The notes under the pieces were generated by a model, which saw nothing but the letters and a program-made list of their open reading frames with translations, did no database searches and was not told where the DNA came from. A program made the translations under genes and the position numbers. From the human T2T-CHM13v2.0 reference genome, Homo sapiens, in assembly GCF_009914755.1 (NCBI RefSeq), contig NC_060925.1: a stretch of DNA of 64,000 bases; one strand, written 5' to 3'. The first letter of the stretch is position 1; each line of letters starts with the position of its first letter. Positions 3,867-21,947 of this stretch are shown here, piece by piece.

Positions 3867-4544
3867 AAATTGAGAGCTCTTTTCCCTGGGTTTGGGGAAG
3901 GAGTCAGGGTAGGGAATTCCACATGGCTAGGCCAGTACCCTCAGTACACTGGAGGGCTGTGGGAATTCCCTTCCTTGCCCATGATGGGGAACCTCAGCAA
4001 GTGCAGGGCCCACGCAGCGCCCGCCAGCAAGGGGAGCTTGGGCCAGGGGTCGGTCCCTGGGAGGGGTAGGTCCCTGGGAGGGGTAGAGCTGGGCAGCAGC
4101 ATGGCCAGTGGCCAACCACAGGATCAAGTCCTAAGTACCGAGAACCTACTCTTCCCCACTTCCTGGGCCCCAGAACGGAATAAGAGGATGGCCTGTGGAA
4201 AGAACCTCTGAGAGACCCCTACAAGGAGAAGAAAGGCCCCAGTGTCCCTCACATTTGTCACCTCTGTTTTCTGGAGGGCAGTGAGTCCTGGAGTCAGTCT
4301 GGTGGTAATACTGACACAGACCAGGAGGGGCAGGGAAGCCCCAACAAGTCTGGACCCCACAGCTGGCTCTCCCACCCCTCAGCAAGCTCTCGCAGTTACC
4401 ACATGATCCTTCGTGTTTCTTGCCTTCCATTTCCCTTGGGTGGATGGTTGGGTAGGTGGGGTTTCCTGGTTTGGGGTTTCTCAGACAAGGGCCCTCTAGG
4501 GAGGGTGCCCTGGACCCCCCACCACTCCTGGGCTGAGGAGCGTG

Positions 4545-4898
<354 letters not shown>

Positions 4899-5092
4899 TC
4901 ATCACCCCACGCCTAAGCCCTTCTGTAGGTGAGGGCATGTGGGCAGAGGAAGGAAGGGGACCAACACCACATCTCCCTCAGTAAGGGTGGAGGGGCCCAG
5001 AGGGCAGGCTGGGAGGAGGCTGGAGGGAGTGGGCCCTGAGCTGGGCACTTATCTGGTTGCAGACCTCTGCCTATGCTACGTCTGACACTCAC

Positions 5093-5155
5093 AGATGACC
5101 TGGGCCACCGTCATCATGGGGCCAGATGGGGATGATCCTGAGCAACGGCGACAAC
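5093..5155 (-). CDS. PI4KB: Candidate PI4KB alternative 63-nt in-frame cassette exon (CRRCSGSSPSGPMMTVAQVIC)
   Basis: Polypyrimidine tract + CAG acceptor, GTGAGT donor, symmetric phase 1-1, no stop. Confidence 0.6.
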
Positions 5156-5642
5156 CTGTGGGGTAGGGGCAGGAATGGGGAGGAGGGGGAGACTGGCAGT
5201 TCAGACCTGGTATACACCTGGAGCCTTGAGGAGGGGGATGAGGACAGAAGGGGGTCCTGGGCAAAAGACTGTAGATGGCAAGACTGTAGTGGAAGGAGAT
5301 AATGATGAGAGGGGAAATACTTCTCAGAGCTGAAGGGTGGCAGAGGACAGGGCAATCAGAGGTCATAGTGGAATGGAGAAGACAGATGGAAGGAGACTGA
5401 GAAACTCAGAGCTGGACAGGGGTGGGGAGGTGAGAAGGGACCAGGAGGCTGTAAATGGGCCTGTTTTCTCCCTAAAGATGCCAAGGAGGCAGGTGCTGCT
5501 ATCCCCTTCCCCAGCCTTCTGGACTTAGCCTTACCAGGGTCAGGAGGAATGTCCTAAAGGAGAAACAAGGCACTGGACCAGAGCTAGAAACTCTCTGGGA
5601 ACCCCCCTCCCTCAACCGAGTCTCGTGGGATCAGCTTTCTTA

Positions 5643-5900
<258 letters not shown>

Positions 5901-5993: not shown

Positions 5994-6422
<429 letters not shown>

Positions 6423-21902: not shown

Positions 21903-21947
21903 GGAACTGAATGAATTATCAATACTCTCGGTGCTGGAGGAGAGCTC
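21903..21947 (-). CDS. PI4KB: PI4KB 45-nt cassette exon (ELSSSTESIDNSFSS; 816 vs 801 aa isoforms)
   Basis: CAG acceptor, GTAAGT donor, phase 0-0; needed to reach 816 aa. Confidence 0.92.

What the first reader, a model, noticed from the sequence alone, without database searches (positions are those of the whole stretch)
5093..5155. Hidden 63-nt in-frame Cys-rich cassette exon in the PI4KB kinase C-lobe
The last intron has a long pyrimidine tract + CAG (5158-5156), then 63 stop-free nt in exactly the needed phase 1-1, then a GTGAGT donor. It also keeps three CpGs in a CpG-poor intron. Inclusion changes MQQG|SQLP to MQQG-CRRCSGSSPSGPMMTVAQVIC-SQLP (837 aa), adding a CRRC motif and a third Cys. 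Inference: this could allow S-acylation or redox control, or alter activity. PI4KB is normally a soluble enzyme recruited by partners, unlike the palmitoylated type II PI4Ks. The exon may already exist as a minor annotated transcript.
Basis: partly seen in the sequence, partly recalled or inferred. Interest (0 to 1): 0.72.

Follow-up and report, generated by a model that had tools for sequence, protein, structure and literature searches.

The report
Annotated, conserved PI4KB alternative coding exon
This is a real 63-base optional exon of the human lipid kinase gene PI4KB that is already in the gene annotation, and it adds a 21-residue loop with three unchanging cysteines that is kept from newts and lizards to humans but has no tested function.

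Summary
Window 5155..5093 (minus strand) is 63 nt. It follows a 70% pyrimidine tract and a CAG, is followed by GTGAGT, sits in phase 1-1 and is stop-free. Inclusion turns the 816-aa PI4KB into an 837-aa protein, with CRRCSGSSPSGPMMTVAQVIC inserted after G757.

It is not hidden. The hub's RefSeq table already lists 5093-5155 as an exon of a non-selected PI4KB transcript.

The human sequence alone proves little. 39% of 63-nt intronic windows are stop-free, and 15 pseudo-exons have equal or better splice scores.

The strong evidence is comparative:
- The same 21-residue insert, at the same junction, occurs in PI4KB models of 31 named tetrapod species, in one full-length protein from a short, apparently intron-free unnamed contig, and in one unnamed intron read-through ORF.
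- The 30 proteins examined give 19 distinct versions. C1, C4, Q18 and C21 are invariant, the TVAQVIC tail is nearly so, and the middle varies.
- No fish, bird, frog or mouse/rat row appeared. That absence is weak evidence.

AlphaFold2 keeps the kinase C-lobe and gives the insert low confidence.

The S-acylation/redox idea is untested. I found no paper on this exon. Verdict: an annotated, conserved alternative coding exon whose function has not been studied.

The parts
5093..5155 (-). 63-nt alternative cassette exon of PI4KB, phase 1-1. It encodes CRRCSGSSPSGPMMTVAQVI plus the first base of the final Cys codon.
   Evidence: Listed as an exon of another RefSeq transcript in the hub table. The same insert occurs in other species' PI4KB models.
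5156..5215 (-). 3' splice region: CAG acceptor (5158-5156) and a C-rich polypyrimidine tract (70% C/T over 60 nt). No consensus YTNAY branch site lies closer than 5242.
   Evidence: Acceptor matrix score 11.55, above 15 of 28 true acceptors of the window.
5087..5092 (-). 5' splice site GTGAGT. The last exon bases are TCT, which is not the usual exon-side consensus.
   Evidence: Donor matrix score 4.72, above only 7 of 27 true donors. The four in-frame codons that run from the exon's last base through the donor and beyond are kept in the unnamed read-through ORF P0003.
5711..5831 (-). Upstream constitutive coding exon ([10 protein letters not shown]...VEIMQQ plus the first base of Gly757).
   Evidence: Hub table. 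40 of 40 residues match solved PI4KB chains, e.g. 4d0l_A 484-523.
4545..4726 (-). Last coding exon (SQLPCFHG...TNGIM and stop). Its first two bases, GT, complete Gly757 in the short form and the third insert Cys in the long form.
   Evidence: Hub table. 59 of 59 residues match 8q6f_A 366-424.
4727..5710 (-). Last intron of the selected transcript (984 nt, phase 1, CpG o/e 0.14), which hosts the cassette.
   Evidence: No Rfam match reaches a gathering score. The cassette and its flanks (5000-5260) are single copy in the genome.

Best explanation
Window 5093-5155 (minus strand) is a genuine, already annotated alternative coding exon of PI4KB that has been kept since early tetrapods. When it is included, the reading frame is preserved, so no premature stop arises and no nonsense-mediated decay is expected. 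The product is an 837-aa kinase. It carries a 21-residue insert between the helix that ends ...VEIMQQG and the conserved LPCF motif, at the junction that leads into the last C-terminal helices of the kinase C-lobe.

Shown:
- the exon anatomy;
- the annotation;
- the conservation pattern, with C-x2-C at the start, (T)VAQ(V)IC at the end, a variable Ser/Gly/Pro/Gln-rich middle and a fixed length of 21;
- a predicted C-lobe fold that is retained around the insert.

Inferred:
- The pattern reflects selection on the protein, not only on RNA signals.
- The weak donor (TCT|GTGAGT) and the absence of a nearby consensus branch site keep inclusion low or restricted.

The mechanism I commit to is that the insert is a surface regulatory loop whose three invariant cysteines are the working part. 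It would change how the C-terminal helices and the membrane-facing side of the kinase behave. My rough odds within this reading:
- altered activity or partner/membrane engagement without covalent modification: 0.3;
- reversible S-acylation at the Golgi: 0.15;
- metal or redox site, possibly using the constitutive LPCF cysteine (spacing C-x2-C-x16-C-x4-C): 0.1;
- an impaired or dominant-negative isoform: 0.2.

The confidence of 0.8 is for 'a genuine, conserved alternative coding exon under protein-level constraint', not for any one of these sub-mechanisms.
For: Anatomy and frame. Annotation: hub RefSeq table.

Conservation:
- A search with the exon read in frame found 7 of 7 candidates carrying it: macaque, snub-nosed monkey, orangutan, sloth, ground squirrel and one unnamed read-through ORF.
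- A search with the insert plus 10 flanking residues on each side found 37 proteins among 258 candidates. These were primates, 3 rodents, 2 xenarthrans, cattle, pig, bear, 5 cats, 5 bats, a rhinoceros, 2 marsupials, a newt, 3 turtles, 3 squamates and one unnamed protein.
- Repeating the search from the newt sequence at E<=10 returned the same 37.
- Both NCBI and UniProt/Ensembl-derived models are among them.
- P0034 is an 834-aa full-length protein from a 3,583-nt contig. That contig is too short to hold the introns, so I infer a spliced transcript.

Pattern of change:
- In the 30 fetched proteins there are 19 distinct 21-mers.
- C1, C4, Q18 and C21 are invariant.
- G6, T15, V16, A17, V19 and I20 are near-invariant, and their changes are conservative (V/I, T/A).
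- There are no length changes inside the 21 residues.

Island of conservation: in the read-through ORF P0003, similarity to the human intron covers the exon, the codons running into the donor and about 22 codons upstream, then vanishes.

Origin: the exon is single copy with no paralogous peptide in the genome, so it is not repeat-derived.

Structure:
- AlphaFold2 on 227 residues with a 107-row alignment gave mean pLDDT 87.8 and pTM 0.85.
- The flanking helices are kept.
- The model superposes on solved PI4KB at 1.2-2.0 A over about 208-210 columns for most solved chains. Four of the 16 PI4KB rows are worse: 2.6 A for two entries and about 7 A for the two full-length alignments.

The exon's CpG retention (3 of the intron's 11 CpGs) fits constraint.
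Against: - No human inclusion data could be seen here, and the selected transcript skips the exon.
- From human sequence alone the exon is not distinguishable from chance.
- There is ascertainment bias. Protein databases only show species where a model with an intact exon was built, so lineages with a broken exon are invisible. No fish, bird, frog or mouse/rat row appeared.
- Many carriers are automated models that combine the insert with other skipped exons.
- The two conserved blocks lie at the exon ends, where splicing enhancers could also impose constraint. No nucleotide alignments were available, so synonymous versus non-synonymous change could not be compared.
- The insert has low pLDDT (10-residue blocks of 74, 53 and 51), so no ordered site is predicted.
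- No paper on the exon was found.
Confidence: 0.8

Rival explanations
1. The exon is spliced in only as noise or as a non-productive by-product. Its conservation would then reflect an RNA- or DNA-level element in the intron, such as a splicing regulator of the last intron or part of the neighbouring annotated enhancer, rather than a useful protein insert.
For: - The conserved blocks sit at the two exon ends next to the splice sites, and about 22 upstream intronic codons are also similar in P0003.
- The donor is weaker than 20 of 27 true donors.
- The selected transcript skips the exon (hub table).
- AlphaFold2 predicts no confident structure for the insert.
- An annotated enhancer begins at 5247 (hub table).
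Against: - The length is fixed at 21 codons, with no stops, in 19 distinct versions spanning amphibian to human.
- Replacements in the tail are conservative at the amino-acid level (V/I, T/A). All three Cys and one Gln are invariant, while the middle changes freely.
- There is no Rfam match at a gathering score, and the RNA folds less stably than 195 of 200 shuffles (z = +1.69).
- One full-length protein from a short, apparently intron-free contig contains the exon (P0034).
Confidence: 0.12
2. The cross-species 'conservation' is an annotation artefact, in which one model with the exon was propagated to other genomes by homology-based gene prediction.
For: - Most carriers are automated 'isoform X' models.
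- The orangutan entry is a partial 'isoform 6'. I guess it may be an annotation projected from human; no call tested that.
Against: - Propagation cannot create intact splice-compatible sequence. Each genome must itself encode an open 21-codon insert, and the versions differ (19 distinct).
- Two independent pipelines (NCBI and UniProt/Ensembl-derived entries) carry it.
- Two unnamed assembled contigs (P0003, P0034) also carry it.
Confidence: 0.03
3. It is a young exon, either primate-specific or derived from a transposable element.
For: None found.
Against: - The 261-nt stretch spanning the exon is single copy in the 3.1-Gb genome (1 match).
- No second copy of the peptide exists; the next best hit has E = 0.8.
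- The insert is present in marsupials, reptiles and a newt.
Confidence: 0.01

Closest known systems
Known 15-residue alternative exon of PI4KB (window 21903-21947, ELSSSTESIDNSFSS). From recall, it distinguishes the 816-aa and 801-aa isoforms.
   Same: It is an in-frame cassette exon of the same gene that is present or absent among the fetched models. Both change a loop without breaking the frame.
   Different: That exon lies in the Ser-rich linker before the kinase domain and is included in the selected transcript. The 63-nt exon lies inside the kinase C-lobe, is skipped in the selected transcript, and carries invariant cysteines.
Palmitoylated cysteine cluster of the type II PI 4-kinases (PI4K2A/PI4K2B)
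   Same: It is a cysteine-bearing segment within the catalytic domain of a PI 4-kinase. [quoted passage not shown]
   Different: The fold family is unrelated. In type II enzymes the cysteines are contiguous (recalled), while here they are spaced C-x2-C and then one Cys 16 residues later. Acylation of the PI4KB insert has never been shown, and I could not test it.
Deeply conserved, frame-preserving, tissue-regulated cassette exons of vertebrates (the class catalogued in VastDB, PMC5630039)
   Same: It is short, a multiple of three, phase-symmetric, conserved in sequence together with its adjacent intron, and inserts a surface loop.
   Different: No tissue profile is known for this exon from anything I could see. 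None of the regulator motifs I scanned (RBFOX, QKI, CELF, PTB) lies within 100 nt.
Solved PI4KB kinase-domain structures (4d0l, 4wae, 5c46, 6gl3, 8q6f)
   Same: The flanking exons are 100% identical to these chains. The predicted long-form C-lobe superposes on most of them at 1.2-2.0 A.
   Different: In all six matched chain sequences the two flanking exons map to positions separated by a single residue. No insert is therefore present, and no experimental view of the insert exists.

Membership tests
Alternative cassette exon of PI4KB | Canonical AG acceptor with a pyrimidine tract, and a GT donor | tested here: met
   CAG at 5158-5156, GTGAGT at 5092-5087. Matrix scores lie within the range of the window's true sites.
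Alternative cassette exon of PI4KB | Frame-preserving and stop-free in the phase set by the flanking exons | tested here: met
   63 nt, phase 1-1. The product goes from 816 aa to 837 aa with a single terminal stop.
Alternative cassette exon of PI4KB | Present in a curated or computed transcript annotation | tested here: met
   The hub RefSeq table lists 5093-5155 under 'exons of other transcripts'. I did not see the transcript accession or its evidence.
Alternative cassette exon of PI4KB | Measured inclusion in human RNA | not testable with these tools
   No RNA-seq resource is available here. Supplements of PMC8187152 (4 files searched, 1 unreadable) and PMC5630039 (16 of 27 files not searched) gave no PI4KB row.
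Alternative cassette exon of PI4KB | Orthologous exon in other species | tested here: met
   37 proteins among 258 candidates, plus the orangutan fragment and the read-through ORF. These cover 31 named species from newt to human.
S-acylated PI 4-kinase (type II-like membrane anchoring) | Cysteine cluster conserved in the catalytic domain | tested here: inconclusive
   Three invariant cysteines are present, but spaced C-x2-C...C and not contiguous.
S-acylated PI 4-kinase (type II-like membrane anchoring) | Demonstrated thioester-linked acyl chains and acylation-dependent membrane binding | not testable with these tools
   This needs acyl-RAC or acyl-PEG exchange and fractionation of the expressed isoform.
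Structural zinc site (four Cys/His ligands in a compact knuckle) | Four suitably spaced ligands | tested here: inconclusive
   C-x2-C-x16-C-x4-C exists only if the constitutive LPCF cysteine is counted. That cysteine is at least 90% conserved in the family whether or not the insert is present.
Structural zinc site (four Cys/His ligands in a compact knuckle) | Confidently predicted compact fold bringing the ligands together | tested here: not met
   Insert pLDDT blocks are 74, 53 and 51. The prediction is a helix extension, a coil and a short helix. No coordinates were available to measure distances.
Exonised transposable element | Multiple related copies in the genome and a lineage-restricted age | tested here: not met
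   Single copy and present across tetrapods.

The most novel reading that the evidence does not exclude
The 837-aa form is a tetrapod-wide, so far unstudied 'self-anchoring' or cysteine-switched version of a type III PI 4-kinase. Its invariant C-x2-C...C triad would be reversibly S-acylated at the Golgi, or would bind a metal or sense redox state. That would give PI4KB a way to reach or stay on membranes, or to be switched, independently of ACBD3, Rab11 or Arf1. This would matter for Golgi PI4P control and for viruses that hijack PI4KB.
Probability: 0.12. Interest if true: 0.7.

Novelty: already known. Interest (0 to 1): 0.35.

Why it matters
PI4KB makes the Golgi pool of PI4P. It is described as a host factor for picornaviruses and as an antiviral inhibitor target (abstracts and passages seen). 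The work I saw uses UniProt isoform 1 (PMC4806292), and all six matched solved chain sequences lack the insert.

A 21-residue, cysteine-bearing insert inside the catalytic C-lobe has been kept with invariant residues across tetrapods. It is therefore a concrete, cheap-to-test candidate for isoform-specific regulation.

The exon itself is not a discovery, because it is annotated.

Tried and rejected
- Sequence-only significance. Splice-site matrices and stop-free statistics do not lift the exon above chance. I therefore dropped this as an argument.
- Repeat or paralogue origin. Rejected.
- RNA element. No Rfam match reaches a gathering score; the best was a snoRNA-like hit of 22.2 bits against a gathering score of 44, on the other strand. 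The RNA fold z-score is +1.69.
- Splicing-regulator motifs. There is no GCAUG, ACUAAY, UGUGU or UCUCU within 100 nt. The YCAY, YGCY and CCCC hits are unremarkable for a C-rich tract.
- Literature. Six full-text searches found nothing on this exon. One search was badly posed because PI4KB was not required.
- PI4KB splicing events in papers. All those I read are other events or could not be placed: an exon skip with an internal start (PMC3308168); exons 2-5 (PMC3553996); a cassette exon over 70 nt (PMC6868169); an unspecified event (bioRxiv 10.64898/2026.08.28.746988).
- Earlier-findings tool.
- Insertions at the same site in distant homologues. Of 87 family representatives, 86 have at most one extra residue there. 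P0097 has 20 extra residues, but its ends look like a poor gene model. P0094 has 37 extra residues just before the site. I treat both as probable intron read-through, not as evidence.
- Older or wider distribution. The search from the newt sequence added nothing beyond the 37.

Full report
**What is there**

PI4KB lies on the minus strand. Reading 5900..4500 on that strand shows three things:
- the upstream constitutive exon ends ...ATG CAG CAA G at 5711;
- the last exon starts GT TCT CAG at 4726;
- in the 984-nt intron between them, a C-rich pyrimidine tract (70% C/T over 60 nt) ends in CAG (5158-5156), followed by 63 nt (5155..5093) and then GTGAGT (5092-5087).

The frame set by the flanking exons is stop-free through these 63 nt. 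The in-frame read is GCRRCSGSSPSGPMMTVAQVI. The exon's last base plus the GT of the last exon makes a third cysteine.

Splicing the annotated CDS in a script gives 816 aa. Adding the cassette gives 837 aa with a single terminal stop, and the insert follows G757. The exon holds 3 of the intron's 11 CpGs, where 0.70 are expected (Poisson P = 0.035). CpG o/e is 0.53 for the exon and 0.14 for the intron.

**Is it more than chance?**

Not on human sequence alone.
- I scored splice sites with weight matrices built from the window's own 27 donors and 28 acceptors. The cassette acceptor is average to good: 11.55, above 15 of 28 true acceptors in leave-one-out scoring. The donor is weak: 4.72, above 7 of 27.
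- In 31,945 nt of PI4KB introns, 16 of 2,638 AG sites and 143 of 1,609 GT sites score at least as well. Together they define 15 candidate exons of 30-300 nt.
- One of the 15 lies in the 5'-UTR intron and has no phase, so I left it out. Of the other 14, only 5155-5093 and 5329-5093 are in-frame and stop-free, and these two share the same donor.
- 39% of 21,115 intronic 63-nt windows are stop-free in a given frame. The frame around the exon stays open for 109 codons because the upstream tract is pyrimidine-rich.

Openness and phase therefore carry little weight.

**It is not hidden**

The hub's RefSeq table lists 5093-5155 among 'exons of other transcripts' of PI4KB.

**Comparative evidence**

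This is the decisive part.
- A 45-aa in-frame read through the exon (P0002) was searched against longer proteins. It returned 7 of 7 candidates carrying the insert: macaque (two isoforms), snub-nosed monkey, two-toed sloth, thirteen-lined ground squirrel, an orangutan partial 'isoform 6', and an unnamed 232-aa ORF.
- A search with the macaque insert plus ten flanking residues on each side found 37 proteins at E<=0.001 among 258 candidates. They include marmot, guinea pig, tamandua, cattle, pig, polar bear, five cats, five bats, black rhinoceros, two marsupials, a newt, three turtles, three squamates and one unnamed protein.
- Repeating the search from the newt sequence at E<=10 returned exactly the same 37.
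- With the orangutan, that makes 31 named species.
- No fish, bird, frog or mouse/rat row appeared. This is weak negative evidence for two reasons. The database is clustered at 90% identity, and it only shows species for which a model containing an intact exon was built.

I fetched 29 of the 37 plus the orangutan fragment, 30 proteins in all. Eight near-duplicate rows were not fetched. Between ...VEIMQQ and SQLPCFHG every one carries the same 21-residue unit. Four reptile models have four extra residues in front, which is consistent with an acceptor 12 nt further upstream.

There are 19 distinct 21-mers:
- Positions 1, 4, 18 and 21 (C, C, Q, C) are invariant.
- G6, T15, V16, A17, V19 and I20 are nearly so, with conservative replacements.
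- Positions 2-3 vary. Position 2 is R in 14 and Q in 5. Position 3 is R in 15, C in 3 and Q in 1. From the genetic code, these are the changes expected from CpG decay of CGN codons.
- Positions 5 and 7-14 vary freely.

The conserved feature is thus C-x2-C ... (T)VAQ(V)IC at a fixed spacing, not 'CRRC'.

Two unnamed assembled contigs add evidence that does not depend on gene prediction:
- P0034 is an 834-aa full-length PI4KB with the insert, from a 3,583-nt contig. That is too short to hold the introns, so I infer a spliced transcript.
- P0003 reads through the intron. Its similarity to the human intron in the same frame covers the exon (19 of 21), the four codons from the exon's last base into the donor region (4 of 4) and about 22 upstream codons with one indel, then disappears. 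The exon is an island of conservation.

**Origin**

The 261 nt around the exon are single copy in the 3.1-Gb genome. No second copy of the peptide exists; the next best hit has E = 0.8. No Rfam family reaches its gathering score. The RNA is less structured than 195 of 200 shuffles. A repeat-derived or RNA-gene explanation is rejected.

**Where the insert sits**

- The flanking exons are identical to solved PI4KB chains. For example, 4d0l_A 484-523 and 525-566 leave only Gly between them. All six matched chain sequences therefore lack the insert.
- A phmmer search of 1.84 billion cluster representatives gave 6,827 relatives.
- I aligned 87 of these with 20 insert-bearing proteins. 86 of the 87 have at most one extra residue at this site. 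The cysteine of the following LPCF motif is at least 90% conserved.
- AlphaFold2 on the 227-aa orangutan fragment with that alignment gave mean pLDDT 87.8 and pTM 0.85.
- In that model the helix [14 protein letters not shown] runs on into CRRCS (helix 134-152). A coil follows (153-162), then a short helix over VAQVIC (163-168).
- Confidence falls to 74, 53 and 51 in the blocks that cover the insert.
- The rest of the model superposes on solved PI4KB at 1.2-2.0 A over about 208-210 columns for most solved chains. Two entries give 2.6 A, and the two full-length alignments give about 7 A.

The insert is thus predicted to be a tolerated surface excursion between the core C-lobe and its last helices. 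It is not predicted to be a confidently folded module.

From recall, not tested here: in PI3K-type lipid kinases the helices after this point form the regulatory arch and the membrane-binding C-terminal helix.

**Mechanism**

Shown: a frame-preserving, annotated, tetrapod-conserved exon, an insert with invariant cysteines, and a C-lobe fold that is retained in prediction.

Inferred:
- Selection acts on the protein.
- The weak donor, and the lack of a consensus branch site nearer than 5242, keep inclusion low or conditional.
- The loop modulates the C-terminal helices or the membrane or partner interface.

Type II PI4Ks are palmitoylated and PI4KB is soluble (PMC4806292 passages). It remains untested.

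A metal site with spacing C-x2-C-x16-C-x4-C is possible only if the constitutive LPCF cysteine takes part. It gets no support from the model's confidence.

**Rivals**

- RNA/DNA-level constraint with noisy splicing (0.12). This fits the end-weighted conservation and the weak donor. It explains less well the fixed length, the conservative amino-acid replacements and the invariant Cys and Gln.
- Annotation propagation (0.03). This is contradicted by 19 different genome-encoded versions, two pipelines and two raw contigs.
- Young or TE-derived exon (0.01). This is refuted.

**Literature**

Six full-text searches and passages read in six papers gave no description of this exon. The PI4KB splicing events I could place are elsewhere in the gene. 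The event in the preprint is unspecified. Supplements were only partly searchable and bioRxiv supplements are closed, so an entry in a large event table cannot be excluded.

**Verdict**

The exon is already annotated, so the novelty rating is 'already known'. The conservation pattern found here makes the isoform a sensible but modest target for experiment.

Noticed in passing
window 5093-5329 (minus strand): A second candidate exon uses an acceptor at 5329 with the same donor. It is 237 nt long and is also in-frame and stop-free. It is not in the hub's exon list. The open frame here runs 109 codons because of the pyrimidine-rich tract.
   Followed up: partly
P0037, P0038, P0040, P0041 (turtle and lizard PI4KB models): These models carry four extra residues (VCPL/VCSL/VCPP plus D or G) in front of the 21-residue unit, as if an acceptor 12 nt upstream were used. 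This adds a fourth cysteine.
   Followed up: partly
P0097 and P0094 (unnamed PI4KB-family representatives): P0097 has a 20-residue, three-cysteine insertion at exactly the same junction. P0094 has 37 extra residues just before it. P0097's ends look like a poor gene model, so intron read-through at a shared ancient intron position is the likely cause.
   Followed up: partly
P0023, P0029 (bat PI4KB models); corresponds to the intron between window exons 6102-6234 and 5711-5831: The bat models carry extra residues (SQEGE..., up to about 35 aa) just before VMGGLDGD. This suggests an alternative donor or partial intron retention one intron upstream of the cassette.
   Followed up: no
window 21903-21947 (minus strand): This 45-nt exon encodes ELSSSTESIDNSFSS. 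It is present in some and absent from others of the fetched mammalian and reptile models, independently of the 63-nt cassette.
   Followed up: partly
Fold search rows 1-2 (8q6f, 8q6g): Solved human PI4KB structures with covalently bound inhibitors exist. Whether extra cysteines in the long isoform would matter for covalent ligands was not examined.
   Followed up: no
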